Source: the human T2T-CHM13v2.0 reference genome, Homo sapiens
Assembly (NCBI GenBank): GCA_009914755.4
Contig: CP086569.2
Coordinates: forward strand, 61,536,001-61,600,000
DNA: 64,000 bases
Direction of reading: 5' to 3'
In this document: positions 1 to 64,000 of the stretch, piece by piece
How the letters are laid out: every line of letters begins with the position of its first letter
Position numbering within the stretch: the stretch's first letter is position 1
Made by a program: the position numbers and the translations under genes
Notes under the pieces: generated by a model
Told to the model about the DNA's origin: nothing
The model's input: the letters and a program-made list of their open reading frames with translations, nothing else
The model's database searches: none

Positions 1-3000
1 TACGGACTCCAATGGAATGGAATCGAATGGAAGGGAATCGAACGGAATGGACTCGAAGGGAAAAGACTGCAATGGAAAGGTCTCGAATGGAATGGAAATT
101 AATGGAATGGAATCGAATGAAATGGAGTCAAAAGGAATGGAATCGAATGGCAAGAAATCGAATGTAATGGAATCGCAAGGAATTGATGTGAACGGAACGG
201 AATGGAATGGAATCCAAAGGAATGGAATAGAATGGAATGGAATCGAATGGAAAGGACTCGAATGGAAATCACTCGAATAGAATGCAATTTAATAAAATAG
301 GATCAAATGTAATGGAATGGAATGGAAAGGAATCGAAACGAAAGGAATGGAGACAGATGGAATGGAATGGAACAGAGAGCAATGGTATAGAATGGAATGG
401 AATCATCTGGAATGGAATTGAATGGAATGGAATAATATGAAATGGAATGGAATGGAACGGAATAGAATGCCCTTGAATTAAATGGACTGGAATGGAATGG
501 ACTCGAACAGAGTGGAATGGAAAGTGTTGAGATAGAATGGAATGGACTCCTTTGGAATGGTGTAGTATGCAATGCAATCGACTGGCAGGGAATCAAAAGG
601 AATGTAATGGAATGGATTGGACTGGAATGCAATGGACTCGAATAGATTGGAAACGGAATGCAAAGGAATGGAATGGAATAGTATGGAATGGAATGGAAAG
701 GAATGGAGTGGAATAGACTAGAGTGGAATGGAATGGACTGGAAAGCAATGGACTGGAATGGAACTTTCTTGAATGGACTGGAATCAAACGGAATGGAATG
801 CAATGCAATCAAATGGCATGGAATAAAATAGAATGAAAGAGAATCAAATGGAATTGAATCGAATGGAATCGAATGGATTGGAAAGGAATAGAATGGAATG
901 GAATGGAATTGACTCAAATGGAATGGACTAGAATGGAATGGATTCGAATGGAAGGCAAAGGAATGGAATCTATTGGAATGGACTGTAATGGAATGGAATG
1001 GAAGGGATTGGAATGGACACGAATGGAATGGACTGCAATAGAAAGGATTCGAATGGAATGAAAAAGAATTGAATGGAATAGAACAGAATGGAATCAAATC
1101 GAATGAAATGGAATGGAAGAGAAAGGAATGGAATGAAATGGAATGGAAAGGATTCGAATGGAAAGGATTCGAATGGAATGCAATCGAATGGAATGCAATC
1201 GAATGGAATGGAATCGAACGGAATGGAATAAAATGGAAGAAAACTGGCAAGAAATGGAATCGAAATGAATGGAGTGTTATGGAACGGACTCAAAAGGAAT
1301 TGAATGTAATAGAATGGAGTGGAGTGGACTCGAATATAATGGACTGGAATGGAATGAAATCACATGGAATGGGAACGAATGGAATGGAATGGAAAGGAAT
1401 GGAATGGAATGGAACGGAATCGAATGGAAGGGAATGAAATTGAATCAACAGGAATGGAAGGGAATAGAATAGACGGTAATGGAATGGACTCGAATAGAAT
1501 GGACACGAATGCTCAAATTGAATGGACTCGAATGGAATGGAAACGAAAGGAATGTCATCGAATGGAATTGAATCGATTGGAATGAAATCGCATAGAATGG
1601 AGTGGAATCAAATGGAATTGAATCGAAAGGAAAGGAAGCGAATGGACTGAAATGAAATGGAATGGAATTGAATGGAAAGTAATGCAATGGAATAGAATGG
1701 AACGAAATTTCACGGAATGGAATCAAACTGAATGGAATCAAATCAATGGAATCAAATCAAATGGAATGGAAAGGAATTGAATGGAGTAGATTGGATTGGA
1801 TGGGATTGGAATGAAATGTACTGGAAAGGACTCGAATTTCATGAAACGGAATGGAATGAATTGGAACGGAATGGACTCGAATGGAATGGAATGTCATGGA
1901 ATGGCATCAAATGGAATGGCATCAAATGGAATGGAATCGAATGCAATGGAATGCTATGGAATGGAATGGAATGCATTGGAATGGAATGTCCTCTAATGGA
2001 ATGGATTCGAGTGGAATGGAATCGAATATAATGGAGTCGAATGAAATGGAATTGAAAGGAATGGGATCGAATACAATGGAATATACTGGAATGTAATGTA
2101 ATGAACTCGAATGTAATTGACTGGAATGGAATGTACATGAATGGAATGTAATCGAATGGAAAGTAATCCAATGGAATAGAATCTAATGCAATAAAATCGA
2201 CTCAGATAGAGTAGAATGTAATGGAATGGAGTGCAGTGCAATGGAATGGAATGGAATGGAATGCAATGGAATGGAATGGAATGGAATGGAATGGAATGGG
2301 ATGGGATGGAATGGTATGGAATGGATAGTAATGGACTGGAGTGAAATGGACTGGAAAGGAATGGACTCAAATTGAAAGGGCTCGAAAGGAATGGAGTCAA
2401 ATGGAATGGTCTGGAATGGAATGAACACGCATGTAATGCAATCCAATAGAATGGAATCGAATGGCATGGAATATAAAGAAATGGAATCGAAGAGAATGGA
2501 AACAAATGGAATGGAATTGAATGGAATGGAATTGAATGGAATGGGAACGAATGGAGTGAAATTGTATGCAGTAGAAGGGAATAGAATGGAATGCAAGTGA
2601 AAGGAAAGGAATGGATTGGAATGGAATGGAATTCATTGGAATGGAAGGGAATGTAGTGTAATGGACAGGCCTGGAATAAAGTGGAATGCTACGGTCTCGA
2701 ATGGAATAAAAATGTATGGAATGGAATGCAATGAAACGGAATCGAATGTCATAGAATGTAATGGAATGCAAAAAAATGGAATCCAAAATCATTGACTGGA
2801 AAGGCTGGGTGTCGAAAGGAATTGACTCCAATGGAATGGAATCGAATGGAATGGAAGTGAATAGAATCGAACTAAATCGAATGGAATGGAATTGATAGGA
2901 ACGGAATGGAAAGGAATGCAATGATTTGGCATGGAATGGAATCGAATGGCATCGAATGGAATGGAATGGAATGCAATGGAATGGAATGTATTAGAATGTA

Positions 3001-3584
3001 ATGAACTTTAATGGAATGTACTCGAATGGATTCGACTGGAATGGAATGTTCTGGAAGTGAATGGACTCCAATGGAATGGATTCAAAAGGAATGGAATCGT
3101 ACGGAATGGAATCTAATGGAATGGAATTAAATGGAAATGAATCAAATTGAATAGCACGGAATTGAATTGAATGGAATCGAATGCAATGGAATCAAATGAA
3201 ACGGAAAAGAAAGGAATGGAATGGAATGGAATGGGCTGGAATGGAAAGGAATCGAAACGAATGGAATGGAATCGAACTGAAGAGACTGGAATGGAATGCA
3301 CTGGAATGGAAGGGAGTGTAATGGAAGGTTCTCGAAAAAAATGGAATCGAATGGAATGGAATTGAATGGAACGGAATAGAGTCGAATGGAATTGAATGGA
3401 ATGGAATGGACTAGAGTGAAATGGAATCGAACCACAAGGAATGGACAGGAATAGAATGGTCTCGAATTGAATGGAATCGTATGGAATGGCATCAAACGGA
3501 ATGGAATGGACAGCCACGGAATGGAATGCACTCGAATGCAATGGAGTCGAAACTAATGGACTGGAATAGAATGGACTCGACTGG
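1..3584 (+). repeat. HOR unit 1 (type A), 3584 bp; carries two extra 15-bp (three-pentamer) duplications relative to units 4 and 7
   Basis: Runs from the anchor at position 1 to the next anchor at 3585. The type-A marker segment near 3171–3365 reads ...atcaaatgaaacggaaaagaaagg. The duplications ggaaaggattcgaat x2 and ggaatgcaatcgaat x2 lie at about 1141–1205. Confidence 0.85.
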
Positions 3585-6500
3585 TACGGACTCCAATGGA
3601 ATGGAATCGAATGGAAGGGAATCGATCGGAATGGACTCGAAGGGAAAAGACTGCAATGGAAAGGTCTCGAATGGAATGGAAATTAATGGAATGGAATGGA
3701 ATCGAATGAAATGGAGTCAAAAGGAATGGAATCGAATGGCAAGAAATCGAATGTAATGGAATCGCAAGGAATTGATGTGAACGGAACGGAATGGAATGGA
3801 ATCCAAAGGAATGGAATAGAATGGAATGGAATCGAATGGAAAGGACTCGAATGGAAATCACTCGAATAGAATGCAATTTAATAAAATAGGATCAAATGTA
3901 ATGGAATGGAATGGAAAGGAATCGAAACGAAAGGAATGGAGACAGATGGAATGGAATGGAACAGAGAGCAATGGTATAGAATGGAATGGAATCATCTGGA
4001 ATGGAATTGAATGGAATGGAATAATATGAAATGGAATGGAATGGAATGGAATGGAATGCCCTTGAATTAAATGGACTGGAATGGAATGGACTCGAACAGA
4101 GTGGAATGGAAAGTGTTGAGATAGAATGGAATGGACTCCTTTGGAATGGTGTAGTATGCAATGCAATCGACTGGCAGGGAATCAAAAGGAATGTAATGGA
4201 ATGGATTGGACTGGAATGCAATGGACTCGAATAGATTGGAAACGGAATGCAAAGGAATGGAATGGAATAGTATGGAATGGAATGGAAAGGAATGGAGTGG
4301 AATAGACTAGAGTGGAATGGAATGGACTGGAAAGCAATGGACTGGAATGGAACTTTCTTGAATGGACTGGAATCAAACGGAATGGAATGCAATGCAATCA
4401 AATGGCATGGAATAAAATAGAATGAAAGAGAATCAAATGGAATTGAATCGAATGGAGTCGAATGGATTGGAAAGGAATAGAATGGAATGGAATGGAATTG
4501 ACTCAAATGGAATGGACTAGAATGGAATGGATTCGAATGGAAGGCAAAGGAATGGAATCTATTGGAATGGACTGTAATGGAATGGAATGGAAGGGATTGG
4601 AATGGACTCGAATGGAATGGACTGCAATAGAAAGGATTCGAATGGAATGAAAAAGAATTGAATGGAATAGAACAGAATGGAATCAAATCGAATGAAATGG
4701 AATGGAATAGAAAGGAATGGAATGAAATGGAATGGAAAGGATTCGAATGGAATGCAATCGAATGGAATGGAATCGAACGGAATGGAATAAAATGGAAGAA
4801 AACTGGCAAGAAATGGAATCGAAATGAATGGAGTGTTATGGAACGGACTCAACAGGAATTGAATGTAATAGAATGGAGTGGAGTGGACTCGAATATAATG
4901 GACTGGAATGGAATGAAATCACATGGAATGGGAACGAATGGAATGGAATGGAAAGGAATGGAATCGAATGGAAAGGAATCGAATGGAAGGGAATGAAATT
5001 GAATCAACAGGAATGGAAGGGAATAGAATAGACGGTAATGGAATGGACTCGAATAGAATGGACACGAATGCTCAAATTGAATGGACTCGAATGGAATGGA
5101 AACGAAAGGAATGTCATCGAATGGAATTGAATCGATTGGAATGAAATCGCATAGAATGGAGTGGAATCAAATGGAATTGAATCGAAAGGAAAGGAAGCGA
5201 ATGGACTGAAATGAAATGGAATGGAATTGAATGGAAAGTAATGCAATGGAATAGAATGGAACGAAATTTCACGGAATGGAATCAAACTGAATGGAATCAA
5301 GTCAATGGAATCAAATCAAATGGAATGGAAAGGAATTGAATGGAGTACATTGGATTGGATGGGATTGGAATGAAATGTACTGGAAAGGACTCGAATTTCA
5401 CGAAACGGAATGGAATGAATTGGAACGGAATGGACTCGAATGGAATGGAATGTCATGGAATGGCATCAAATGGAATGGCATCAAATGGAATGGAATCGAA
5501 TGCAATGGAATGCTATGGAATGGAATGGAATGCATTGGAATGGAATGTCCTCTAATGGAATGGATTCGAGTGGAATGGAATCGAATATAATGGAGTTGAA
5601 TGAAATGGAATTGAAAGGAATGGGATCGAATACAATGGAATATACTGGAATGTAATATAATGAACTCGAATGTAATTGACTGGAATGGAATGTACATGAA
5701 TGGAATGTAATCGAATGGAAAGTAATCCAATGGAGTAGAATCTAATGCAATAAAATCGACTCAGATAGAGTAGAATGTAATGGAATGGAGTGCAGTGCAA
5801 TGGAATGGAATAGAATGGAATGCAATGGAATGGAATGGAAGGGAATGGAATGGAATGGAATGGAATGGAATTGGATGGGATGGAATGGTATGGAATGGAT
5901 AGTAATGGACTGGAGTGAAATGGACTGGAAAGGAATGGACTCAAATTGAAAGGGCTCGAAAGGAATGGAGTCAAATGGAATGGTCTGGAATGGAATGAAC
6001 ACGAATGTAATGCAATCCAATAGAAGGGAATCGAATGGCATGGAATATAAAGAAATGGAATCGAAGAGAATGGAAACAAATGGAATGGAATTGAATGGAA
6101 TGGAATTGAATGGAATGGGAACGAATGGAGTGAAATTGTATGCAGTAGAAGGGAATACAATGGAATGCAAGCGAAAGGAAAGGAATGGATTGGAATGGAA
6201 TGGAATTCATTGGAATGGAAGGGAATGTAGTGTAATGGACAGGCCTGGAATAATGTGGAATGCTACAGTCTCGAATGGAATAAAAATGTATGGAATGGAA
6301 TGCAATGAAACGGAATCGAATGTCATAGAATGTAATGGAATGCAAAAAAATGGAATCCAAAATCATTGACTGGAAAGGCTGGGTGTCGAAAGGAATTGAC
6401 TCCAATGGAATGGAATCGAATGGAATGGAAGTGAATAGAATCGAACTAAATCGAATGGAATGGAATTGATAGGAACGGAATGGAAAGGAATGCAATGATT

Positions 6501-7158
6501 TGGCATGGAATGGAATCGAATGGCATCGAATGGAATGGAATGGAATGCAATGGAATGGAATGTATTAGAATGTAATGAACTTTAATGGAATGTACTCGAA
6601 TGGATTCGACTGGAATGGAATGTTCTGGAAGTGAATGGACTCCAATGGAATGGATTCAAAAGGAATGGGATCGTACGGAATGGAATCTAATGGAATGGAA
6701 TTAAATGGAAATGAATCAAATTGAATACCACGGAATTGACTTGAATGGAATGGAATGCAATGGAATCTAATGAAACGGAAAGGAAAGGAATGGAATGGAA
6801 TGGAATGGGCTGGAATGGAAAGGAATCGAAACGAATGGAATGGAATCGAACTGAAGAGACTGGAATGGAATGCACTGGAATGGAAGGGAGTGTACTGGAA
6901 GGTTCTCGAAAATAATGGAATCGAATGGAATGGAATTGAATGGAACGGAATAGAGTCGAATGGAATTGAATGGAATGGAATGGACTAGAGTGAAATGGAA
7001 TCGAACCACAAGGAATGGACAGGAATAGAATGGTCTCGAATTGAATGGAATCGTATGGAATGGCATCAAACGGAATGGAATGGACAGCCACGGAATGGAA
7101 TGCACTCGAATGCAATGGAGCCGAAACTAATGGACTGGAATAGAATGGAATCGACTGG
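3585..7158 (+). repeat. HOR unit 2 (type B), 3574 bp
   Basis: Runs from anchor 3585 to anchor 7159. The type-B marker tgacttgaatggaatggaatgcaatggaatctaatgaaacgg is at about 6735–6780. The variant ggaataatgtgg is at about 6249. Confidence 0.85.
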
Positions 7159-10100
7159 TACGGACTCCAATGGAATGGAATCGAATGGAAGGGAATCGAA
7201 CGGAATGGACTCGAAGGGAAAAGACTGCAATGGAAAGGTCTCGAATGGAATGGAAATTAATGGAATGGAATGGAATCGAATGAAATGGAGTCAAAAGGAA
7301 TGGAATCGAATGGCAAGAAATCGAATGTAATGGAATCGCAAGGAATTGATGTGAACGGAACGGAATGGAATGGAATCCAAGGAATGGAATAGAATGGAAT
7401 GGAATCGAATGGAAAGGACTCGAATGGAAATCACTCGAATAGAATGCAATTTAATAAAATAGGATCAAATGTAATGGAATGGAATGGAAAGGAATCGAAA
7501 CGAAAGGAATGGAGACAGATGGAATGGAATGGAACAGAGAGCAATGGTATAGAATGGAATGGAATCATCTGGAATGGAATTGAATGGAATGGAATAATAT
7601 GAAATGGAATGGAATGGAATGGAATGGAATGCCCTTGAATTAAATGGACTGGAATGGACTGGACTCGAACAGAGTGGAATGGAAAGTGTTGAGATAGAAT
7701 GGAATGGACTCCTTTGGAATGGTGTAGTATGCAATGCAATCGACTGGCAGGGAATCAAAAGGAATGTAATCGAATGGATTGGACTGGAATGCAATGGACT
7801 CGAATAGATTGGAAACGGAATGCAAAGGAATGGAATGGAATAGTATGGAATGGAATGGAAAGGAATGGAGTGGAATAGACTAGAGTGGAATGGAATGGAC
7901 TGGAAAGCAATGGATTGGAATGGAACTTTCTTGAATGGACTGGAATCAAACGGAATGGAATGCAATGCAATCAAATGGCATGGAATAAAATAGAATGAAA
8001 GAGAATCAAATGGAATTGAATCGAATGGAATCGAATGGATTGGAGAGGAATAGAATGGAATGGAATGGAATTGACTCAAATGGAATGGACTAGAATGGAA
8101 TGGATTCGAATGGAAGGCAAAGGAATGGAATCTATTGGAATGGACTCTAATGGAATGGAATGGAAGGGATTGGAATGGACTCGAATGGAATGGACTGCAA
8201 TAGAAAGGATTCGAATGGAATGAAAAAGAATTGAATGGAATAGAACAGAATGGAATCAAATCGAATGAAATGGAATGGAATAGAAAGGAATGGAATGAAA
8301 TGGAATGGAAAGGATTCGAATGGAATGCAATCGAATGGAATGGAATCGAACGGAATGGAATAAAATGGAAGAAAACTGGCAAGAAATGGAATCGAAATGA
8401 ATGGAGTGTTATGGAACGGACTCAAAAGGAATTGAATGTAATAGAATGGAGTGGAGTGGACTCGAATATAATGGACTGGAATGGAATGAAATCACATGGA
8501 ATGGGAACGAATGGAATGGAATGGAAAGGAATGGAATCGAATGGAAAGGAATCGAATGGAAGGGAATGAAATTGAATCAACAGGAATGGAAGGGAATAGA
8601 ATAGACGGTAATGGAATGGACTCGAATAGAATGGACACGAATGCTCAAATTGAATGGACTCGAAAGGAATGGAAAGGAAAGGAATGTCATCGAATGGAAT
8701 TGAATCGATTGGAATGAAATCGCATAGAATGGAGTGGAATCAAATGGAATTGAATCGAAAGGAAAGGAAGCGAATGGACTGAAATGAAATGGAATGGAAT
8801 TGAATGGAAAGTAATGCAATGGAATAGAATGGAACGAAATTTCACGGAATGGAATCAAACTGAATGGAATCAAATCAATGGAATCAAATCAAATGGAATG
8901 GAAAGGAATTGAATGGAGTAGATTGGATTGGATGGGATTGGAATGAAATGTACTGGAAAGGACTCGAATTTCATGAAACGGAATGGAATGAATTGGAACG
9001 GAATGGACTCGAATGGAATGGAATGTCATGGAATGGCATCAAATGGAATGGCATCAAATGGAATGGAATCGAATGCAATGGAATGCTATGGAATGGAATG
9101 GAATGCATTGGAATGGAATGTCCTCTAATGGAATGGATTCGAGTGGAATGGAATCGAATATAATGGAGTCGAATGAAATGGAATTGAAAGGAATGGGATC
9201 GAATACAATGGAATATACTGGAATGTAATGTAATGAACTCGAATGTAATTGACTGGAATGGAATGTACATGAATGGAATGTAATCGAATGGAAAGTAATC
9301 CAATGGAATAGAATCTAATGCAATAAAATCGACTCAAATAGAGTAGAATGTAATGGAATGGAGTGCAGTGCAATGGAATGGAATGGAATGGAATGCAATG
9401 GAATGGAATGGAATGGAATGGAATGGGATGGAATGGTATGGAATGGATAGTAATGGACTGGAGTGAAATGGACTGGAAAGGAATGGACTCAAATTGAAAG
9501 GGCTCGAAAGGAATGGAGTCAAATGGAATGGTCTGGAATGGAATGAACACGAATGTAATGCAATCCAATAGAATGGAATCGAATGGCATGGAATATAAAG
9601 AAATGGAATCGAAGAGAATGGAAACAAATGGAGTGGAATTGAATGGAATGGAATTGATTGGAATGGGAACGAATGGAGTGAAATTGTATGCAGTAGAAGA
9701 GAATAGAATGGAATGCAAGCGAAAGGAATGGAATGGATTGGAATGGAATGGAATTCATTGGAATGGAAGGGAATGTAGTGTAATGGACAGGCCTGGAATA
9801 AAGTGGAATGCTACGGTCTCGAATGGAATAAAAATGTATGGAATGGAATGCAATGAAACGGAATCGAATGTCATAGAATGTAATGGAATGCAAAAAATGG
9901 AATCCAAAATCATTGACTGGAAAGGCTGGGTGTCGAAAGGAATTGACTCCAATGGAATGGAATCGAATGGAATGGAAGTGAATAGAATCGAACTAAATCG
10001 AATGGAATGGAATTGATAGGAACGGAATGGAAAGGAATGCAATGATTTGGCATGGAATGGAATCGAATGGCATCGAATGGAATGGAATGGAATGCAATGG

Positions 10101-10705
10101 AATGGAATGTGTTAGAATGTAATGAACTTTAATGGAATGTACTCGAATGGATTCGACTGGAATGGAATGTTCTGGAAGTGAATGGACTCCAATGGAATGG
10201 ATTCAAAAGGAATGGAATCGTACGGAATGGAATCTAATGGAATGGAATTAAATGGAAATGAATCAAATGGAATAGCACGGAATTGAATTGAATGGAATCG
10301 AATGCAATGGAATCTAATGAAACGGAAAGGAAAGGAATGGAATGGAATGGAATGGGCTGGAATGGAAAGGAATCGAAATGAATGGAATGGAATCGAACTG
10401 AAGAGACTGGAATGGAATGCACTGGAATGGAAGGGAGTGTAATGGAAGGTTCTCGAAAAAAATGGAATCGAATGGAATGGAATTGAATGGAACGGAATAG
10501 AGTCGAATGGAATTGAATGGAATGGAATGGACTAGAGTGAAATGGAATAGAACCACAAGGAATGGACAGGAATAGAATAGTCTCGAATTGAATGGAATCG
10601 TATGGAATGGCATCAAACGGAATGGAATGGATAGCCACGGAATGGAATGCACTCGAATGCAATGGAGTCGAAACTAATGGACTGGAATAGAATGGACTCG
10701 ACTGG
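7159..10705 (+). repeat. HOR unit 3 (type C), 3547 bp
   Basis: Runs from anchor 7159 to anchor 10706. Type-C markers are the 6-A run gcaaaaaatgg at about 9890 and ggatagccacgg at about 10630, where other unit types read ggacagccacgg. Confidence 0.85.
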
Positions 10706-45500: not shown

Positions 45501-45625
45501 TCTCGAATTGAATGGAATCGTATGGAATGGCATCAAACGGAATGGAATGGACAGCCACGGAATGGAATGCACTCGAATGCAATGGAGTCGAAACTAATGG
45601 ACTGGAATAGAATGGACTCGACTGG
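42481..45625 (+). repeat. HOR unit 13, 5'-truncated; it begins at unit offset about 418 and lacks the tacggactcc anchor region
   Basis: From 42481 the sequence ggaattgaatggaatggaataatatgaaaatgaatgg continues collinear with unit offset about 418. The next anchor is at 45626, and the anchor-to-anchor distance 39129 to 45626 is 6497 bp, about 0.6 kb short of two units. Confidence 0.75.
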
Positions 45626-52741: not shown

Positions 52742-55700
52742 TACGGACTCCAATGGAATGGAATCGAATGGAAGGGAATCGAACGGAATGGCCTCGAAGG
52801 GAAAAGACTGCAATGGAAAGGTCTCGAATGGAATGGAAATTAATGGAATGGAATGGAATCGAATGAAATGGAGTCAAAAGGAATGGAATCGAATGGCAAG
52901 AAATCGAATGTAATGGAATCGCAAGGAATTGATGTGAACGGAACGGAATGGAATGGAATCCAAAGGAATGGAATAGAATGGAATGGAATCGAATGGAAAG
53001 GACTCGAATGGAAATCACTCGAATAGAATGCAATTTAATAAAATAGGATCAAATGTAATGGAATGGAATGGAAAGGAATCGAAACGAAAGGAATGGAGAC
53101 AGATGGAATGGAATGGAACAGAGAGCAATGGTATAGAATGGAATGGAATCATCTGGAATGGAATTGAATGGAATGGAATAATATGAAATGGAATGGAATG
53201 GAATGGAATGGAATGCCCTTGAATTAAATGGACTGCACTCGAACAGAGTGGAACGGAAAGTGTTGAGATAGAATGGAATGGACTCCTTTAGAATGGTCTA
53301 GTATGCAATGCAATCGACTGGCAGGGAATCAAAAGGAATGTAATGGAATGGATTGGACTGGAATGCAATGGACTCGAATAGATTGGAAACGGAATGCAAA
53401 GGAATGGAATGGAATAGTATGGAATGGAATGGAAAGGAACGGAGTGGAATAGACTAGAGTGGAATGGAATGGACTGGAAAGCAATGGACTGGAATGGAAC
53501 TTTCTTGAATGGACTGGAATCAAACGGAATGGAATGCAATGCAATCAAATGGCATGGAATAAAATAGAATGAAAGAGAATCAAATGGAATTGAATCGAAT
53601 GGAATCGAATGGATTGGAAAGGAATAGAATGGAATGGAATGGAATTGACTCAAATGGAATGGACTAGAATGGAATGGATTCGAATGGAAGGCAAAGGAAT
53701 GGAATCTATTGGAATGGACTGTAATGGAATGGAATGGAAGGGATTGGAATGGACTCGAATGGAATGGACTGCAATAGAAAGGATGCGAATGGAATGAAAA
53801 AGAATTGAATGGAATAGAACAGAATGGAATCAAATCGAATGAAATGGAATGGAATAGAAAGGAATGGAATGAAATGGAATGGAAAGGATTCGAATGGAAT
53901 GCAATCGAATGGAATGGAATCGAACGGAATGGAATAAAATGGAAGAAAACTGGCAAGAAATGGAATCGAAATGAATGGAGTGTTATGGAACGGACTCAAA
54001 AGGAATTGAATGTAATAGAATGGAGTGGAGTGGACTCGAATATAATGGACTGGAATGGAATGAAATCACATGGAATGGGAACGAATGGAATGGAATGGAA
54101 AGGAATGGAATCGAATGGAAAGGAATCGAATGGAAGGGAATGAAATTGAATCAACAGGAATGGAAGGGAATAGAATAGACGGTAATGGAATGGACTCGAA
54201 TAGAATGGACACGAATGCTCAAATTGAATGGACTCGAATGGAATGGAAACGAAAGGAATGTCATCGAATGGAATTGAATCGATTGGAATGAAATCGCATA
54301 GAATGGAGTGGAATCAAATGGAATTGAATCGAAAGGAAAGGAAGCGAATGGACTGAAATGAAATGGAATGGAATTGAATGGAAAGTAATGCAATGGAATA
54401 GAATGGAACGAAATTTCACGGAATGGAATCAAACTGAATGGAATCAAATCAATGGAATCAAATCAAATGGAATGGAAAGGAATTGAATGGAGTAGATTGG
54501 ATTGGATGGGATTGGAATGAAATGTACTGGAAAGGACTCGAATTTCATGAAACGGAATGGAATGAATTGGAACGGAATGGACTCGAATGGAATGGAATGT
54601 CATGGAATGGCATCAAATGGAATGGCATCAAATGGAATGGAATCGAATGCAATGGAATGCTATGGAATGGAATGGAATGCATTGGAATGGAATGTCCTCT
54701 AATGGAATGGATTCGAGTGGAATGGAATCGAATATAATGGAGTCGAATGAAATGGAATTGAAAGGAATGGGATTGAATACAATGGAATATACTGGAATGT
54801 AATGTAATGAACTCGAATGTAATTGACTGGAATGGAATGTACATGAATGGAATGTAATCGAATGGAAAGTAATCCAATGGAATAGAATCTAATGCAATAA
54901 AATCGACTCAGATAGAGTAGAATGTAATGGAATGGAGTGCAGTGCAATGGAATGGAATGGAATGGAATGCAATGGAATGGAATGGAATGGAATGGAATGG
55001 AATGGAATGGAATGGGATGGGATGGAATGGTATGGAATGGATAGTAATGGACTGGAGTGAAATGGACTGGAAAGGAATGGACTCAAATTGAAAGGGCTCG
55101 AAAGGAATGGAGTCAAATGGAATGGTCTGGAATGGAATGAACACGAATGTAATGCAATCCAATAGAATGGAGTCGAATGGCAGGGAATATAAAGAAATGG
55201 AATCGAAGAGAATGGAAACAAATGGAATGGAATTGAATGGAAAGGAATTGAATGGAATGGGAACGAATGGAGTGAAATTGTATGCAGTAGAAGAGAATAG
55301 AATGGAATGCAAGCGAAAGGAAAGGAATGGATTGGAATGGAATGGAATTCATTGGAATGGAAGGGAATGTAGTGTAATGGACAGGCCTGGAATAAAGTGG
55401 AATGCTACGGTCTCGAATGGAATAAAAATGTATGGAATGGAATGCAATGAAACGGAATGGAATGTCATAGAATGTAATGGAATGCAAAAAAATGGAATCC
55501 AAAATCATTGACTGGAAAGGCTGGGTGTCGAATGGAATTGACTCCAATGGAATGGAATCGAATGGAATGGAAGTGAATAGAATCAAACTAAATCGAATGG
55601 AATGGAATTGATAGGAACGGAATGGAAAGGAATGCAATGATTTTGCATGGAATGGAATCGAATGGCATCAAATGGAATGGAATGGAATGCAATGGAATGG

Positions 55701-56300
55701 AATGTATTAGAATGTAATGAACTTTAATGGAATATACTCGAATGGATTCGACTGGAATGGAATGTTCTGGAAGTGAATGGACTCCAATGGAATGGATTCA
55801 AAAGGAATGGAATCGTACGGAATGGAATCTAATGGAATGGAATTAAATGGAAATGAATCAAATTGAATAGCACGGAATTGAATTGAATGGAATGGAATGC
55901 AATGGAATCTAATGAAACGGAAAGGAAAGGAATGGAATGGAATGGAATGGGCTGGAATGGAAAGGAATCGAAACGAATGGAATGGAATCGAACTGAAGAG
56001 ACTGGAATGGAAAGCACTGGAATGGAAGGGAGTGTAATGGAAGGTTCTCGAAAAAAATGGAATCGAATGGAATGCAATTGAATGGAACGGAATAGAGTCG
56101 AATGCAATTGAAAGGAATGGAATGGACTAGAGTGAAATGGAATCGAACCACAAGGAATGGACAGGAATAGAATGGTCTCGAATTGAATGGAATCGTATGG
56201 AATGGCATCAAACGGAATGGAATGGACAGCCACGGAATGGAATGCACTCGAATGCAATGGAGTCGAAACTAATGGACTGGAATAGAATGGACTCGACTGG
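52742..56300 (+). repeat. HOR unit 16 (type X), 3559 bp
   Basis: Runs from anchor 52742 to anchor 56301. It has the extra GGCC at 52790–52793. It shares the unit-14 markers actgcactcgaacagagtggaacgg at about 53232 and ggatgcgaatgg at about 53784. Confidence 0.85.
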
Positions 56301-59300
56301 TAAGGACTCCAATGGAATGGAATCGAATGGAAGGGAAACGAACGGAATGGAATCGAAGGGAAAAGACTGCAATGGAAAGGTCTCGAATGGAATGGAAAAT
56401 AATGGAATGGAATGGAATCGAATGAAATGGAGGCAAAAGGAATGGAATCGAATGGCAAGAAATCGAATGTAATGGAATCGCAAAGAATTTATGTGAACGG
56501 AACGGAATGGAATGGAATCCAAAGGAATGGAATAGAATGGAATGGAATCGAATGGAAAGGACTCGAATGGAAATCACTCGAATAGAATGCAATTTAATAA
56601 AATAGGATCAAATGTAATGGAATGGAATGGAAAGGAATCGAAACGAAAGGAATGGAGACAGATGGAATGGAATGGAACAGAGAGCAATGGTATAGAATGG
56701 AATGGAATCATCTGGAATGGAATTGAATGGAATGGAATAATATGAAATGGAATGGAATGGAATGGAATGCCCTTGAATTAAATGGACTGGAATGGAATGG
56801 ACTCGAACAGAGTGGAATGGAAAGTGTTGAGATAGAATGGAATGGACTCCTTTGGAATGGTCTAGTATGCAATGCAATCGACTGGCAGGGAAACAAAAGG
56901 AATGTAATCGAATGGATTGGACTGGAATGCAATGGACTCGAATAGATTGGAAACGGAATGCAAAGGAATGGAATGGAATAGTATGGAATGGAATGGAAAG
57001 GAATGGAGTGGAATAGACTAGAGTGGAATGGAATGGACTCGAAAGCAATGGACTGGAATGGAACTTACTTGAATGGACTGGAATCAAACGGAATGGAATG
57101 CAATGCAATCAAATGGCATGGAATAAGATAGAATGAAAGAGAATCAAATGGAATTGAATCGAATGGAATCGAATGGATTGGAAAGGAATAGAATGGAATG
57201 GAATGGAATTGACTCAAATGGAATGGACTAGAATGGAATGGATTCGAATGGAAGGCAAAGGAATGGAATCTATTGGAATGGACTGTAATGGAATGCAATG
57301 GAAGGGATTGGAATGGACTCGAATGGAATGGACTGCAATAGAAAGGATTCGAATGGAATGAAAAAGAATTGAATGGAATAGAACAGAATGGAATCAAATC
57401 GAATGAAATGGAATGGAATAGAAAGGAATGGAATGAAATGGAATGGAAAGGATTCGAATGGAATGCAATCGAATGGAATGGAATCGAACGGAATGGAATA
57501 AAATGGAAGAAAACTGGCAAGAAATGGAATCGAAATGAATGGAGTGTTATGGAATGGACGCAAAAGGAATTGAATGTAATAGAATGGAGTGGAGTGGACT
57601 CGAATATAATGGACTGGAATGGAATGAAATCACACGGAATGGGAACGAATGGAATGGAATGGAAAGGAATGGAATCGAATGGAAAGGAATCGAATGGAGG
57701 GGAATGAAATTGAATCAACAGGAATGGAAGGGAATAGAATAGACGGTAATGGAATGGACTCGAATAGAATGGACACGAATGCTCAAATTGAATGGACTCG
57801 AATGGAATGGAAAGGAAAGGAATGTCATCGAATGGAATTGAATCGATTGGAATGAAATCGCATAGAATGGAGTGGAATCAAATGGAATTGAATCGAAAGG
57901 AAAGGAAGCGAATGGACTGAAATGAAATGGAATGGAATTGAATGAAAAGTAATGCAATGGAATAGAGTGGAACGAAATTTCACGGAATGGAATCAAACTG
58001 AATGGAATCAAATCAATGGAATCAAATCAAATGGAATGGAAAGGAATTGAATGGAGTAGATTGGATTGGATGGGATTGGAATGAAATGTACTGGAAAGGA
58101 CTCGAATTTCATGAAACGGAATGGAATGAATTGGAACGGAATGGACTCGAATGGAATGGAATGTCATGGAATGGCATCAAATGGAATGGCATCAAATGGA
58201 ATGGAATCGAATGCAATGGAATGCTATGGAATGGAATGGAATGCATTGGAATGGAATGTCCTCTAATGGAATGGATTCGAGTGGAATGGAATCGAATATA
58301 ATGGAGTCGAATGAAATGGAATTGAAAAAAATGGGATCGAATACAATGGAATATACTGGAATGTAATGTAATGAACTCGAATGTAATTGACTGGAATAGA
58401 ATGTACATGAATGGAATGTAATCGAATGGAAACTAATCCAATGGAATAGAATCTAATGCAATAAAATCGACTCAGATAGAGTAGAATGTAATGGAATGGA
58501 GTGCAGTGCAATGGAATGGAATGGAATGGAATGCAATGGAATGGAATGGAATGCAATGGAATGGAATGGAATGCAATGGAATGGGATGGAATGGTATGGA
58601 ATGGATAGTAATGGACTGGAGTGAAATGGACTGGAAAGGAATGGACTCAAATTGAAAGGGCTCGAAAGGAATGGAGACAAATGGAATGGTCTGGAATGGA
58701 ATGAACACGAATGTAATGCAATCCAATAGAATGGAGTCGAATGGCATGGAATATAAAGAAATGGAATCGAAGAGAATGGAAACAAATGGAATGGAATTGA
58801 ATGGAATGGAATTGAATGGAATGGGAACGAATGGAGTGAAATTGTATGCAGTAGAAGAGAATAGAATGGAATGCAAGCGAAAGGAAAGGAATGGATTGGA
58901 ATGGAATGGAATTCATTGGAATGGAAGGGAATGTAGTGTAATGGACAGGCCTGGAATAAAGTGGAATGCTACGGTCTCGAATGGAATAAAAATGTATGGA
59001 ATGGAATGCAATGAAACGGAATCGAATGTCATAGAATGTAATGGAATGCAAAAAAATGGACTCCAAAATCATTGACTGGAAAGGCTGGGTGTCGAAAGGA
59101 ATTGACTCCAATGGAATGGAATCGAATGGAATGGAAGTGAATAGAATCAAACTAAATCGAATGGAATGGAATTGATAGGAACGGAATGGAAAGGAATGCA
59201 ATGATTTGGCATGGAATGGAACCGAATGGCATCGAATGGAATGGAATGGAATGCAATGGAATGGAATGTATTAGAATGTAATGAACTTTAATGGAATGTA

Positions 59301-59864
59301 CTCGAATGGATTCGACTGGAATGGAATGTTCTGGAAGTGAATGGACTCCAATGGAATGGATTCAAAAGGAATGGAATCGTACGGAATGGAATCTAATGGA
59401 ATGGAATTAAATGGAAATGAATCAAATTGAATAGCACGGAATTGAATTGAATGGAATGGAATGCAATGGAATCTAATGAAACGGAAAGGAAAGGAATGGA
59501 ATGGAATGGAATGGGCTGGAATGGAAAGGAATCGAAACGAATGGAATGGAATCGAACTGAAGAGACTGGAATGGAATGCACTGGAATGGAAGGGAGTGTA
59601 ATGGAAGGTTCTCGGAAAAAATGGAATGCAATGGAATGGAATTGAATGGAACGGAATAGAGTCGAATGGAATTGAATGGAATGGAATGGACTAGAGTGAA
59701 ATGGAATCGAACCACAAGGAATGGACAGGAATAGAATGGTCTCGAATTGAATGGAATCGTATGGAATGGCATCAAACGGAATGGAATGGACAGCCACGGA
59801 ATGGAATGCACTCGAATGCAATGGAGTCGAAACTAATGGACTGGAATAGAATGGACTCGACTGG
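56301..59864 (+). repeat. HOR unit 17 (type D-like), 3564 bp
   Basis: Runs from the anchor variant taaggactcc at 56301 to the anchor at 59865. Private variants include gggaaacgaacgg and gaaaataatgg near 56330–56400. Confidence 0.8.
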
Positions 59865-62800
59865 TACGGACTCCAATGGAATGGAATCGAATGGAAGGGA
59901 ATCGAACGGAATGGACTCGAAGGGAAAAGACTGCAATGGAAAGGTCTCGAATGGAATGGAAATTAATGGAATGGAATGGAATCGAATGAAATGGAGTCAA
60001 AAGGAATGGAATCGAATGGCAAGAAATCAAATGTAATGGAATCGCAAGGAATTGATGTGAACGGAACGGAATGGAATGGAATCCAAAGGAATGGAATAGA
60101 ATGGAATGGAATCGAATGGAAAGGACTCGAATGGAAATCACTCGAATAGAATGCAATTTAATAAAATAGGATCAAATGTAATGGAATGGAATGGAAAGGA
60201 ATCGAAACGAAAGGAATGGAGACAGATGGAATGGAATGGAACAGAGAGCAATGGTATAGAATGGAATGGAATCATCTGGAATGGAATTGAATGGAATGGA
60301 ATAATATGAAATGGAATGGAATGGAATGGAATGGAATGCCCTTGAATTAAATGGACTGGACTCGAACAGATTGGAATGGAAAGTGTTGAGATAGAATGGA
60401 ATGGACTCCTTTAGAATGGTGTAGTATGCAATGCAATCGACTGGCAGGGAATCAAAAGGAATGTAATGGAATGGATTGGACTGGAATGCAATGGACTCGA
60501 ATAGATTGGAAACGGAATGCAAAGGAATGGAATGGAATAGTATGGAATGGAATGGAAAGGAATGGAGTGGAATAGACTAGAGTGGAATGGAATGGACTGG
60601 AATGCAATGGAATGGAATGGAACTTTCTTGAATGGACTGGAATCAAACGGAATGGAATGCAATGCAATCAAATGGCATGGAATAAGATAGAATGAAAGAG
60701 AATCAAATGGAATAGAATCGAATGGAATCGAATGGATTGGAAAGGAATAGAATGGAATGGAATGGAATTGACTCAAATGGAATGGACTAGAATGGAATGG
60801 ATTCGAATGGAAGGCAAAGGAATGGAATCTATTGGAATGGACTGTAATGGAATGGAATGGAAGGGATTGGAATGGACTCGAATGGAATGGACTGCAATAG
60901 AAAGGATTCGAATGGAATGAAAAAGAATTGAATGGAATAGAACAGAATGGAATCAAATCGAATGAAATGGAATGGAATAGAAAGGAATGGAATGAAATGG
61001 AATGGAAAGGATTCGAATGGAATGCAATCGAATGGAATGGAATCGAACGGAATGTAATAAAATGGAAGAAAACTGGCAAGAAATGGAATCGAAATGAATG
61101 GAGTGTTATGGAACGGACTCAAAAGGAATTGAATGTAATAGAATGGAGTGGAGTGGACTCGAATATAATGGACTGGAATGGAATGAAATCACATGGAATG
61201 GGAACGAATGGAATGGAATGGAAAGGAATGGAATCGAATGGAAAGGAATCGAACGGAAGGGAATGAAATTGAATCAACAGGAATGGAAGGAAATAGAATA
61301 GACGGTAATGGAATGGACTCGAATAGAATGGACACGAATGCTCAAATTGAATGGACTCGAATGGAATGGAAACGAAAGGAATGTCATCGAATGGAATTGA
61401 ATCGATTGGAATGAAATCGCATAGAATGGAGTGGAATTAAATGGAATTGAATCGAAAGGAAAGGAAGCGAATGGACTGAAATGAAATGGAATGGAATTGA
61501 ATGGAAATTAATGCAATGGAATAGAATGGAACGAAATTTCACGGAATGGAATCAAACTGAAAGGAATCAAATCAATGGAATCTAATCAAATGGAATGGAA
61601 AGGAATTGAATGGAGTAGATTGGATTGGATGGGATTGGAATGAAATTTACTGGAAAGGACTCGAATTTCATGAAACGGAATGGAATGAATTGGAACGGAA
61701 TGGACTCGAATGGAATGGAATGTCATGGAATGGCATCAAATGGAATGGCATCAAATGGAATGGAATCGAATGCAATGGAATGCTATGGAATGGAATGGAA
61801 TGCATTGGAATGGAATGTCCTCTAATGGAATGGATTCGAGTGGAATGGAATCGAATATAATGGAGTCGAATGAAATGGAATTGGAAGGAATGGGATCGAA
61901 TACAATGGAATATACTGGAATGTAATGTAATGAACTCGAATGTAATTGACTGGAATGGAATGTACATGAATGGAACGTAATCGAATGGAAAGTAATCCAA
62001 TGGAATAGAATCTAATGCAATAAAATCGACTCAGATAGAGTAGAATGTAATGGAATGGAGTGCAGTGCAATGGAATGGAATGGAATGGAATGCAATGGAA
62101 TGGAATGGAATGGAATGGAATGGAATGGAATGGGATGGAATGGTACGGAATGGATAGTAATGGACTGGAGTGAAATGGACTGGAAAGGAATGGACTCAAA
62201 TTGAAAGGGCTCGAAAGGAATGGAGACAAATGGAATGGTCTGGAATGGAATGAACACGAATGTAATGCAATCCAATAGAATGGAATCGAATGGCATGGAA
62301 TATAAAGAAATGGAATCGAAGAGAATGGAAACAAATGGAATGGAATTGAATGGAATGGAATTGAATGGAATGGGAACGAATGGAGTGAAATTGTATGCAG
62401 TAGAAGAGAATAGAATGGAATGCAAGCGAAAGGAAAGGAATGGATTGGAATGGAATGGAATTCATTGGAATGGAAGGGAATGTAGTGTAATGGAGAGGCC
62501 TGGAATAAAGTGGAATGCTACGGTCTCGAATGGAATAAAAATGTATGGAATGGAATGCAATGAAACGGAATCGAATGTCATAGAATGTAATGGAATGCAA
62601 AAAAAATGGAATCCAAAATCATTGACTGGAAAGGCTGGGTGTCGAAAGGAATTGACTCCAATGGAATGGAATCGAATGGAATGGAAGTGAATAGAATCGA
62701 ACTAAATCGAATGGAATGGAATTGATAGGAACGGAATGGAAAGGAATGCAATGATTTTGCATGGAATGGAATCGAATGGCATCGAATGGAATGGAATGGA

Positions 62801-63414
62801 ATGCAATGGAATGGAATGTATTAGAATGTAATGAACTTTAATGGAATGTACTCGAATGGATTCGACTGGAATGGAATGTTCTGGAAGTGAATGGACTCCA
62901 ATGGAATGGATTCAAAAGGAATGGAATCGTACGGAATGGAATCTAATGGAATGGAATTAAATGGAAATGAATCAAATTGAATAGCACGGAATTGAATTGA
63001 ATGGAATGGAATGCAATGGAATCTAATGAAACGGAAAGGAAAGGAATGGAATGGAATGGAATGGGCTGGAATGGAAAGGAATCGAAACGAATGGAATGGA
63101 ATCGAACTGAAGAGACTGGAATGGAATGCACTGGAATGGAAGGGAGTGTAATGGAAGGTTCTCGAAAAAAATGGAATCGAATGGAATGGAATTGAATGGA
63201 ACGGAATAGAGTCGAATGGAATTGAATGGAATGGAATGGACTAGAGTGAAATGGAATCGAACCACAAGGAATGGACAGGAATAGAATGGTCTCGAATTGA
63301 ATGGAATCGTATGGAATGGCATCAAACGGAATGGAATGGACAGCCACGGAATGGAATGCACTCGAATGCAATGGAGTCGAAACTAATGGACTGGAATAGA
63401 ATGGACTCGACTGG
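59865..63414 (+). repeat. HOR unit 18, 3550 bp
   Basis: Runs from anchor 59865 to anchor 63415. It reads ggactggactcgaacagattgg at about 60355 and lacks one ggaatgg block there. Confidence 0.8.
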
Positions 63415-64000
63415 TACGGACTCCAATGGAATGGAATCGAATGGAAGGGAATCGAACGGAATGGACTCGAAGGGAAAAGACTGCAATGGAAAGGTCTCGA
63501 ATGGAATGGAAATTAATGGAATGGAATGGAATCGAATGAAATGGAGTCAAAAGGAATGGAATCGAATGGCAAGAAATCAAATGTAATGGAATCGCAAGGA
63601 ATTGATGTGAACGGAACGGAATGGAATGGAATCCGAAGGAATGGAATAGAATGGAATGGAATCGAATGGAAAGGACTCGAATGGAAATCACTCGAATAGA
63701 ATGCAATTTAATAAAATAGGATCAAATGTAATGGAATGGAATGGAAAGGAATCGAAACGAAAGGAATGGAGACAGATGGAATGGAATGGAACAGAGAGCA
63801 ATGGTATAGAATGGAATGGAATCATCTGGAATGGAATTGAATGGAATGGAATAATATGAAATGGAATGGAATGGAATGGAATGGAATGCCCTTGAATTAA
63901 ATGGACTGGACTCGAACAGAGTGGAATGGAAAGTGTTGAGATAGAATGGAATGGACTCATTTGGAATGGTGTAGTATGCAATGCAATCGACTGGCAGGGA
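63415..64000 (+). repeat. HOR unit 19 (partial, first 586 bp)
   Basis: The anchor is at 63415. The unit is collinear with other unit starts through the ggcagggaa motif that ends the window. Confidence 0.8.

What the first reader, a model, noticed from the sequence alone, without database searches (positions are those of the whole stretch)
1..64000. Pure HSat3 (GGAAT)n array with a ~3.55 kb HOR, probably DYZ1 / Yq12; no genes
Every kilobase is pentameric satellite, and a ~3.55 kb higher-order repeat recurs 18 times. The unit length (modal 3549–3574 bp), the single HaeIII site per unit and the pentamer composition match the classical ~3.56 kb DYZ1 Y-specific repeat, which is composed almost entirely of TTCCA/GGAAT. 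HSat3 arrays also exist on chromosomes 9, 15 and the acrocentrics, so the chromosomal assignment is an inference. If the sequence is DYZ1, this window would be male-specific heterochromatin whose copy number is highly polymorphic.
Basis: partly seen in the sequence, partly recalled or inferred. Interest (0 to 1): 0.5.

Follow-up and report, generated by a model that had tools for sequence, protein, structure and literature searches.

The report
Human Y-chromosome DYZ1 satellite array

Summary
All 64 kb is GGAAT-type satellite, organised as a ~3.56-kb higher-order repeat: 17 full units and 2 partial ones. In-register copies are 98.3-100% identical; out-of-register alignments are ~70%.

The DYZ1 (HSat3A6) assignment passed every test I could run:
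- The consensus unit is 3,564 bp, the length of the cloned DYZ1 reference.
- Eight published DYZ1 primers occur once per unit, in the right order, and reproduce the ten published amplicon sizes.
- Only the HSat3A6 diagnostic 24-mer is present (32 exact hits). The markers of the other 13 HSat2/3 subfamilies have no hit at up to one mismatch.
- GC (38.8%) and CpG density (1 per 36 bp) match published DYZ1 values.
- Primers whose product is male-only by PCR and Y-only by FISH have sites in every unit.
- 120 chr9-type HSat3 contigs, used as negative controls, fail these tests.

Units 1-9 are a recent triplication of a three-unit, 10.67-kb block.

No genes are present. Location on the Y itself was not tested by alignment. 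Already known; low interest.

The parts
1..64000 (+). Uninterrupted DYZ1 (HSat3A6) satellite array. The G-rich (GGAAT)n strand is the window's + strand. The classical TTCCA-strand numbering of the DYZ1 clone runs on the - strand.
   Evidence: The forward primers A-D of PMC2923088 match the - strand.
1..2667 (+). Partial unit 0 (the 3' 2,667 bp of a unit). Not part of the triplication: 20 substitutions against unit 3.
2668..13337 (+). Triplicated block, copy 1 (units 1-3: 2668-6241, 6242-9789, 9790-13337), 10,670 bp.
   Evidence: Corresponding units differ by 1-6 substitutions, against 36-50 for other pairings.
13338..23997 (+). Triplicated block, copy 2 (units 4-6: 13338-16911, 16912-20444, 20445-23997), 10,660 bp.
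23998..34662 (+). Triplicated block, copy 3 (units 7-9: 23998-27571, 27572-31114, 31115-34662), 10,665 bp. The outer edges of the triplication map to about 2578-2668 and 34613-34776.
34663..41790 (+). Units 10 (34663-38211) and 11 (38212-41790), ordinary units 98.6-99.1% identical to the rest.
41791..44708 (+). Unit 12, a short 2,918-bp variant. A 645-bp (129-pentamer) deletion lies between two copies of the 20-bp direct repeat TGGAATGGAATTGAATGGAA; the junction follows base 42474.
44709..55383 (+). Units 13-15 (44709-48255, 48256-51824, 51825-55383). All three share an A>C change (GGACTC to GGCCTC) that creates a second HaeIII site, at 45674, 49221 and 52790. Units 13 and 15 differ by only 8 substitutions.
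55384..62496 (+). Units 16 (55384-58947) and 17 (58948-62496). Unit 16 is the most diverged, at 98.3-98.6%.
62497..64000 (+). Partial unit 18 (the first 1,504 bp of a unit).
2532..2828 (.). Example of the least pentameric, marker-dense segment around the canonical HaeIII site (GGCC at 2668). It holds Y1.2 (2532-2554), primer A (2586-2607), Y1.1 / Penin forward (2662-2685), primer E (2794-2815) and Penin reverse (2807-2828). It recurs once per unit.
3044..3056 (+). Perfect heat-shock element GAATGTTCTGGAA, at unit offset 377; present in all 18 unit copies that span this offset.
   Evidence: sequence read
3324..3336 (+). Perfect heat-shock element GAAGGTTCTCGAA, at unit offset 657; present in 17 of the 18 unit copies that span this offset.
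   Evidence: sequence read
4350..4362 (+). Perfect heat-shock element GAACTTTCTTGAA, at unit offset about 1683; present in most units.

Best explanation
The window is a 64-kb internal piece of one DYZ1 block: human satellite 3, subfamily HSat3A6, the ~3.56-kb HaeIII repeat of the Yq12 heterochromatin. It is non-coding constitutive heterochromatin.

Shown here:
- It is a head-to-tail array of a 3,564-bp consensus unit built from diverged GGAAT pentamers.
- The array carries direct footprints of how such arrays change. Length differences between units are almost all multiples of 5 bp. A 645-bp intra-unit deletion lies between two 20-bp direct repeats. A three-unit (10.67-kb) block is tandemly triplicated with 0.08-0.12% divergence between copies. 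A single A>C variant is shared by three adjacent units.

Inferred mechanism: unequal sister-chromatid exchange, replication slippage in pentamer and unit register, and intra-array gene conversion. These homogenise the units and make copy number highly polymorphic between men.

Inferred function, taken from the literature and not shown for this copy: under heat shock, HSF1 binds heat-shock elements inside Yq12 satellite III, drives transcription of the (GGAAU)n strand (the window's + strand), and nucleates nuclear stress bodies. Each unit here keeps three perfect GAAnnTTCnnGAA elements at fixed offsets.
For: Structure.

The consensus unit is 3,564 bp, the length of the DYZ1 clone X06228.1 as quoted in PMC7889540.

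The eight DYZ1 primers of PMC2923088 each occur once per unit, on the expected strand and in the expected order. In-silico products against published sizes:
- A-F 266/266 bp in 18 of 18 units
- D-H 329/329 in 18 of 18
- C-E 275/275 in 17 of 18
- B-G 242/242 in 15 of 18
- B-H 773/773 in 14 of 18
- A-E 3347-3393 against 3378
- A-G 1529-1584 against 1564
- A-H 2060-2115 against 2095
- B-E 2044-2076 against 2056
- D-E 1607-1622 against 1612

Subfamily 24-mers of PMC4022460 Table 1: HSat3A6 has 32 exact hits; the other 13 subfamilies have no hit at up to 1 mismatch.

GC is 38.8% and CpG density is 1 per 35.9 bp, against 38% and 1 per 35 bp for DYZ1 in Hallast et al.. Unit identity is at least 98.3%, against 'over 98%' in T2T-Y.

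The Yq12 ChIP primers of PMC7889540 gave a PCR product only from male DNA, and that product hybridised only to the Y. Both primers have sites once per unit, converging.

Independent copies: 7 contaminant contigs in 'bacterial' assemblies are 98.9-99.8% identical end to end. Two are collapsed single units of 3,574 and 3,569 bp; 3,569 bp is the commonest HaeIII fragment reported by Hallast et al..

Negative control: 120 HSat3B5-type contigs (230 kb) have median 73% identity to the unit and lack the markers.

Turnover footprints. Published support for unequal exchange and gene conversion in Yq12. Heat-shock elements.
Against: No alignment to a Y assembly could be run, so the Yq12 location is inferred from marker specificity reported in papers.

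No DYZ1/DYZ2 junction lies in the window. This is expected, since published DYZ1 blocks are 50 kb to 3.6 Mb.

Small mismatches with published reagents:
- Primer D has 2 mismatches in every unit.
- The Penin forward primer has 1-2 mismatches, and the predicted product is 166-168 bp rather than the stated '154-bp region'.
- I find three perfect heat-shock elements per unit where Penin et al. report four in X06228.1.

The heat-shock elements number 52 against a context-aware expectation of 14.5. They are three sites copied by homogenisation, so the sequence alone gives no evidence of selection.

Altemose Table 1 lists HSat3A6 as 'Y, 7', and that paper does not explain the chromosome 7 entry.
Confidence: 0.95

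Rival explanations
1. An autosomal HSat3 array (9q12 HSat3B5, chr15 HSat3A5/D15Z1, or acrocentric HSat3A1/A2/A4) that happens to have a ~3.56-kb higher-order repeat.
For: HSat3 occurs on many chromosomes, and all subfamilies share the pentamer composition. The control HSat3B5 contigs have a similar pentamer fraction.
Against: The diagnostic 24-mers of all 13 other subfamilies are absent at up to 1 mismatch, while the HSat3A6 marker has 32 exact hits. 120 HSat3B5-type contigs reach only a median 73% identity to the unit and lack primers A, C, E, Y1.1, Y1.2, Penin reverse and the A6 24-mer. The window reproduces the DYZ1 clone's primer map and its 3,564-bp length.
Confidence: 0.01
2. Genuine DYZ1-family sequence that is not on Yq12 in the source genome. 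Examples: Yq12 heterochromatin translocated to an acrocentric short arm, as in der(15)t(Y;15)(q12;p13); the minor 'chromosome 7' HSat3A6 signal; or the DYZ1-derived arrays at the Yq11/Yq12 transition.
For: Y;15 translocations carrying Yq12 are reported (PMC5442907, listed). Altemose Table 1 gives 'Y, 7' for HSat3A6. Hallast et al. describe a 2.7-kb array that is 77% DYZ1-derived near the Yq11/Yq12 boundary. Sequence alone cannot tell a translocated copy from one in place.
Against: Such carriers and sites are rare or small compared with the tens of Mb of DYZ1 on Yq12. The window has canonical 3.53-3.58-kb units, not 2.7- or 3.1-kb ones. Its single 2,918-bp unit is a simple deletion derivative that is ~99% identical to its neighbours. 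No DYZ18-type sequence interrupts the array.
Confidence: 0.03
3. The fine structure is partly an assembly artefact: the 3 x 10.67-kb near-identical block, or the 2,918-bp unit, could come from mis-joined or duplicated reads in a very repetitive region.
For: Yq12 is among the hardest regions to assemble and is often flagged for errors. The three copies differ by only 8-13 substitutions per 10.66 kb.
Against: The copies are not identical. Each has private substitutions and 5-bp-multiple indels, and their lengths are 10,670, 10,660 and 10,665 bp, as expected for real, slightly diverged duplicates. Iterative tandem duplications are a documented feature of Yq12. The deletion has a clean 20-bp direct-repeat junction.
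Confidence: 0.05
4. A Y-linked (AATGG)n satellite from a non-human great ape.
For: (AATGG)n is male-biased or Y-located in other great apes (PMC6805231).
Against: Primers designed on human DYZ1 match with 0-1 mismatch and reproduce the exact amplicon sizes. Human-contaminant contigs in unrelated assemblies are up to 99.8% identical over a full unit. Satellite turnover between apes is described as rapid.
Confidence: 0.01

Closest known systems
DYZ1 / HSat3A6, the 3.56-kb HaeIII repeat of human Yq12 (Nakahori et al. 1986, GenBank X06228.1; T2T-Y, Rhie et al. 2023; Hallast et al. 2023)
   Same: Pentamer origin; 3,564-bp consensus unit; HaeIII periodicity; primer map and amplicon sizes; the HSat3A6 24-mer; 38-39% GC; 1 CpG per ~35 bp; at least 98% unit identity; heat-shock elements.
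   Different: Nothing of substance. Local variants are a 2,918-bp deleted unit, three units with a second HaeIII site, and a three-unit triplication. There are small mismatches to individual published primers, and three rather than four perfect heat-shock elements per unit.
HSat3B5, the 9q12 satellite III (classical heat-shock-induced SATIII / nuclear stress body locus)
   Same: The same GGAAT pentamer family, a similar pentamer fraction, and the same reported HSF1-driven transcription behaviour.
   Different: Only ~73% median identity to the window's unit. It lacks all DYZ1 markers, and its own diagnostic 24-mer is absent from the window.
Other Y-linked HSat3-derived arrays: DYZ17, DYZ18 and the 3.1-kb and 2.7-kb arrays at the Yq11/Yq12 transition; HSat3A3
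   Same: Y-linked and pentamer-based. The 2.7-kb unit is 77% DYZ1-derived.
   Different: Different unit lengths (2.7 and 3.1 kb). The HSat3A3 marker is absent. The window's units are canonical 3.53-3.58 kb.
DYZ2 / HSat1B, the ~2.4-kb repeat that alternates with DYZ1 in Yq12
   Same: The same chromosomal compartment; it forms blocks interleaved with DYZ1.
   Different: An unrelated sequence: 24% GC, more than 85% AT in one part, and an Alu fragment. None of this is in the window, where the AT fraction never exceeds 0.68 in any 200 bp.

Membership tests
DYZ1 / HSat3A6 | Built from diverged copies of the pentamer GGAAT / CATTC | tested here: met
   60% of bases lie in exact GGAAT rotations. Period-5 self-match is at least 0.51 in every 200 bp, against 0.31 by chance.
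DYZ1 / HSat3A6 | ~3.56-kb (3,564-bp) higher-order unit in head-to-tail array | tested here: met
   The consensus of 17 full units is 3,564 bp. Units are 3,533-3,579 bp, plus one deleted unit of 2,918 bp. The reference length is quoted in PMC7889540.
DYZ1 / HSat3A6 | HaeIII site once per unit, giving ~3.56-kb fragments | tested here: met
   The canonical GGCC occurs in all 18 unit copies. Fragments are 3,533-3,579 bp. Three units have an extra site from one A>C change. Hallast et al. used the same virtual digest; their modal fragment was 3,569 bp.
DYZ1 / HSat3A6 | Collinear with the cloned DYZ1 unit | tested here: met
   The eight primers of PMC2923088 are in the expected order and orientation, and all ten published amplicon sizes are reproduced, either exactly or within about 35 bp. 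A direct base-by-base alignment to X06228.1 was not possible because the sequence is not held.
DYZ1 / HSat3A6 | Carries HSat3A6-specific k-mers and not those of other subfamilies | tested here: met
   The top HSat3A6 24-mer has 32 exact hits. The 13 other subfamily 24-mers have no hit at up to 1 mismatch. Only one marker per subfamily was available.
DYZ1 / HSat3A6 | Composition: ~38% GC and ~1 CpG per 35 bp; units over 98% identical | tested here: met
   38.8% GC, 1 CpG per 35.9 bp, and 98.3-100% identity.
DYZ1 / HSat3A6 | Male-specific; located on Yq12 | not testable with these tools
   No human assembly can be searched here. Indirect support: primer sites for an amplicon shown to be male-only by PCR and Y-only by FISH (PMC7889540) occur once per unit, with 1-2 mismatches in the forward primer.
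DYZ1 / HSat3A6 | Blocks alternate with DYZ2 / HSat1B | not testable with these tools
   The window holds no junction. A pure 64-kb stretch fits published DYZ1 block sizes of 50 kb to 3.6 Mb.
HSat3B5 (9q12) | Carries the HSat3B5-specific 24-mer and is highly similar to 9q12-type HSat3 | tested here: not met
   No hit at up to 1 mismatch. 120 contigs carrying that marker are a median 73% identical to the window's unit.
HSat3A5 (chr15, D15Z1) and acrocentric HSat3A1/A2/A4 | Carry their subfamily-specific 24-mers | tested here: not met
   No hit at up to 1 mismatch for each.
Y 2.7-kb / 3.1-kb / DYZ18 transition arrays | 2.7- or 3.1-kb unit with a DYZ18-derived portion | tested here: not met
   Units are 3.53-3.58 kb. 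The one 2,918-bp unit is a 645-bp internal deletion of a normal DYZ1 unit, ~99% identical to the others. A DYZ18 consensus was not available for direct comparison.

The most novel reading that the evidence does not exclude
The least ordinary reading still open is that this DYZ1 stretch does not sit on Yq12 in its source genome. It could be Yq12 heterochromatin carried on an acrocentric short arm, or another autosomal site such as the unexplained 'chromosome 7' HSat3A6 signal. Alternatively, the three-unit 10.67-kb block could be a locally fixed supra-unit periodicity of DYZ1 rather than a one-off recent triplication.
Probability: 0.04. Interest if true: 0.3.

Novelty: already known. Interest (0 to 1): 0.08.

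Why it matters
It matters little as a discovery. DYZ1 has been known since the 1970s-80s and is now fully assembled in many Y chromosomes. The practical value lies in annotation. The window should be labelled male-specific heterochromatin with no genes, and its long 'ORFs' should never be called as proteins. Reads or contigs that match it in non-human datasets are human male contamination; seven such contigs sit in bacterial genome assemblies. The internal variants (triplication, deleted unit, shared extra HaeIII site) are a small, clean illustration of how this array turns over. They could also serve as a barcode to place the window within a specific Yq12 block.

Tried and rejected
- I recalled the classical Y1.1/Y1.2 DYZ1 primers (Kogan et al. 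1987) from memory. They fit perfectly, giving 154 bp in 18 of 18 units. I could not find them in any held paper, so they count only as a memory-based lead.
- The original DYZ1 paper (PMC311781) is not held, so no base-by-base alignment to X06228.1 was possible.
- The T2T-Y preprint gives no FISH probe primer sequences in its text.
- Altemose 2014 does not explain the 'Y, 7' entry.
- Scans of viral contigs for the DYZ1 22-mer and for the HSat3B5 and HSat3A5 markers found nothing.
- Rfam found nothing.
- Coding potential is rejected. ORFs of up to 315 aa on the - strand translate to degenerate (IPFHS)n and hit only repeat families far below Pfam cut-offs (Extensin_1 40-45 bits against 105; Pentapeptide_4 26 against 38). 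The ORFs are broken in several units.
- Heat-shock element enrichment is rejected as independent evidence of function. There are 52 against 0.6 by naive shuffling, but 14.5 once the GAA-rich context is allowed for, and the 52 are three sites copied by homogenisation.
- There is no periodicity between 15 bp and the 3.56-kb unit. Only a weak 15-bp sub-period appears.
Full report
**1. Observation**

The window is satellite from end to end.
- Exact rotations of GGAAT cover 60% of the + strand (0.565-0.636 in every kilobase) and essentially none of the - strand.
- Tandem Repeats Finder returns one array, 11-63931.
- GC stays at 0.378-0.396 in every 2-kb window.
- At 200-bp resolution the period-5 self-match never falls below 0.51 (chance 0.31), and the AT fraction stays between 0.53 and 0.68. 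No Alu, L1, DYZ2-like AT-rich segment or other insert is present.

Exact 24-mers recur mainly at 3,549-3,574 bp. A unit aligned along the window gives 97-100% identity in register and only ~69-70% out of register, so the higher-order repeat is far beyond what the pentamer background gives. Cutting at the canonical HaeIII site gives 17 full units and two partial ones, about 18 unit-equivalents. The pairwise identity of full units is 98.3-100%.

- Unit 12 (41791-44708) is only 2,918 bp.
- Units 13-15 each have a second HaeIII site, so the window holds 21 GGCC sites in all.

**2. Identity**

No human assembly can be searched with these tools, so I tested the DYZ1 assignment with sequence markers taken from papers.

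(a) Primer map. PMC2923088 lists eight primers designed along the cloned DYZ1 unit, with positions and ten expected amplicon sizes. Each primer occurs once per unit, on the expected strand and in the expected order.
- Short products are reproduced exactly: A-F 266 bp in 18 of 18 units, D-H 329 in 18 of 18, C-E 275 in 17 of 18, B-G 242 in 15 of 18, B-H 773 in 14 of 18.
- Long products fall within a few tens of bp: A-E 3347-3393 against 3378; A-G 1529-1584 against 1564; A-H 2060-2115 against 2095; B-E 2044-2076 against 2056; D-E 1607-1622 against 1612.
- Primer D has two mismatches in every unit.

(b) Unit length. The majority consensus of the 17 full units is 3,564 bp. This is the length of the DYZ1 clone X06228.1 as quoted by Penin et al..

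(c) Subfamily markers. Altemose et al. 2014 give one diagnostic 24-mer for each of 14 HSat2/3 subfamilies. Only the HSat3A6 (DYZ1) marker is present, with 32 exact hits, about two per unit. None of the other 13, including HSat3B5 (chr9), HSat3A5 (chr15), the acrocentric subfamilies and the Y-linked HSat3A3, matches even with one mismatch.

(d) Composition. The window has 38.8% GC and one CpG per 35.9 bp. Hallast et al. report 38% and one per 35 bp for DYZ1. The identity of at least 98.3% matches 'over 98%' in T2T-Y.

(e) Male/Y specificity. Penin et al. designed Yq12 primers whose product was obtained only from male DNA and hybridised only to the Y. Both have sites once per unit, converging. 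The forward primer has 1-2 mismatches, and the predicted product is 166-168 bp, not the '154-bp region' stated. I could not resolve that discrepancy without their supplementary figure.

(f) Memory-based lead. The classical Y1.1/Y1.2 primers, recalled from memory, give 154 bp in 18 of 18 units. No held paper lists them, so this is a lead only.

**3. Controls from elsewhere**

- *Positive control.* A 22-mer invariant in all 18 units occurs in seven contigs filed under bacterial genomes (Actinomadura, Streptomyces, Streptosporangium, Senimuribacter and a Polyangiaceae MAG). All seven align end to end to the window's consensus at 98.9-99.8% and have ~38% GC. Two are collapsed single units of 3,574 and 3,569 bp. 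The second figure is the modal HaeIII fragment length of Hallast et al.. This is the human Y-satellite contamination described by Rhie et al..
- *Negative control.* 120 metagenome contigs (230 kb) carrying the chr9-type HSat3B5 marker align to the window's unit at a median 73% identity (range 67-89.5%). They lack primers A, C and E, Y1.1, Y1.2, the Penin reverse primer and the HSat3A6 24-mer.
- The markers and the collinearity test therefore do discriminate between HSat3 subfamilies. The one outlier, L017, is a composite of ~900 bp of DYZ1 and ~550 bp of HSat3B5-like sequence.

**4. Fine structure and mechanism**

In a multiple alignment of the units, nearly all length differences are multiples of 5 bp: 5, 10, 15, 25 and 30.

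- Unit 12 lacks 645 bp (129 pentamers) between two copies of the 20-bp direct repeat TGGAATGGAATTGAATGGAA. The junction follows base 42474.
- The extra HaeIII site in units 13-15 is a single A>C change (GGACTC to GGCCTC) shared by three neighbouring units.
- Units 1-3, 4-6 and 7-9 are three copies of a 10.67-kb block. Corresponding units differ by 1-6 substitutions, against 36-50 for any other pairing. The flanking units 0 and 10 are not part of it, so the edges lie at about 2578-2668 and 34613-34776.
- If I assume the Yq12-inclusive rate of 1.99e-7 per bp per generation quoted, and ignore gene conversion, the 8-13 differences per 10.66 kb correspond to roughly 1,900-3,100 generations. This is a rough inference only.

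These footprints are what unequal sister-chromatid exchange, slippage in pentamer and unit register, and intra-array conversion would leave. The Y-assembly papers propose the same mechanisms for Yq12.

**5. Function**

There are no genes.
- Rfam finds nothing.
- The 49 ORFs of 150 aa or more, up to 315 aa and mostly on the - strand, translate to degenerate (IPFHS)n. They hit only repeat families far below Pfam cut-offs and are interrupted in several units. They exist because (ATTCC)n has no stop codon in any frame.

The best-supported activity of this DNA comes from the literature. In heat-shocked male cells, HSF1 binds Yq12 satellite III, (GGAAU)n RNA accumulates, and nuclear stress bodies form on the Y. 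This depends on the Yq12 band. Each unit in the window has three perfect GAAnnTTCnnGAA elements at offsets 377, 657 and ~1683 from the HaeIII site; Penin et al. count four in X06228.1. There are 52 elements against a context-aware expectation of 14.5, and they are three sites multiplied by homogenisation. The sequence is compatible with that function but does not demonstrate it.

**6. Verdict**

This is DYZ1 / HSat3A6, already known and already assembled in full in many men. Three things remain untested: a direct placement on Yq12, read-level confirmation of the triplication, and whether this copy is transcribed. Interest is low.

Noticed in passing
L001-L007 (BMRF01000076.1, CALPCJ010000043.1, NZ_JBFAJD010000109.1, BNBB01000077.1, BMTH01000117.1, BMTN01000077.1, CAYVXY010000078.1): Seven contigs deposited as parts of bacterial genomes (Actinomadura, Streptomyces x3, Streptosporangium, Senimuribacter, a Polyangiaceae MAG) are human DYZ1. 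They are 98.9-99.8% identical end to end to the window's consensus unit and have ~38% GC, whereas several of the named genera are ones I know as high-GC (actinomycetes; not measured here). Two are collapsed single units of 3,574 and 3,569 bp. These are human male DNA contamination.
   Followed up: yes
L017 (OGUQ01021894.1), 1-1452: A metagenome contig whose first ~900 aligned bases are ~98-100% identical to DYZ1 and whose remaining ~550 bases are HSat3B5-like (73% to DYZ1). It is either a short-read assembly chimera between two HSat3 subfamilies or a real junction.
   Followed up: partly
window 2668-34662: A three-unit (10,670 / 10,660 / 10,665 bp) block is tandemly triplicated, with only 8-13 substitutions between copies. 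The middle copy carries private changes. The rough age is 1,900-3,100 generations at the quoted Yq12 mutation rate.
   Followed up: yes
window 44709-55383 (units 13-15): Units 13 and 15 differ by only 8 substitutions, while unit 14 between them differs from each by ~21-23. All three share the A>C change that makes a second HaeIII site. This suggests local conversion or a further small duplication.
   Followed up: partly
whole window, variable columns of the unit alignment: Among 196 variants relative to the consensus, transitions and transversions are about equal (96:100), and only 19 are CpG transitions despite one CpG per 36 bp. This spectrum is unlike ordinary euchromatin. It recalls the depletion of CpG>TpG changes reported for acrocentric short arms, whose mutation rate that paper calls comparable to Yq12.
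   Followed up: no
window, once per unit, e.g. 2662-2828: The Yq12 ChIP primer pair of Penin et al. 2021 predicts a 166-168-bp product here, not the '154-bp region' stated. The forward primer has 1-2 mismatches near its 3' end in every unit. 154 bp is exactly the product of the classical Y1.1/Y1.2 pair, which overlaps the same site.
   Followed up: partly
window - strand, e.g. 3892-4809, 303-1250: Recurrent ORFs of 305-315 aa encode (IPFHS)n-like low-complexity peptides that give sub-threshold Pfam hits to Extensin_1 and Pentapeptide_4. ORFs of this kind could be miscalled as proteins when DYZ1 contaminates microbial assemblies.
   Followed up: partly
consensus unit (all units): Within the 3.56-kb unit the only sub-periodicity above the 5-bp signal is a weak 15-bp period: match 0.695 at lag 15 against 0.65 at lag 5, with TRF consensus AATGGAATGGAATCG. 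The least pentameric ~200 bp surrounds the HaeIII site, and most unit-specific markers lie there.
   Followed up: partly
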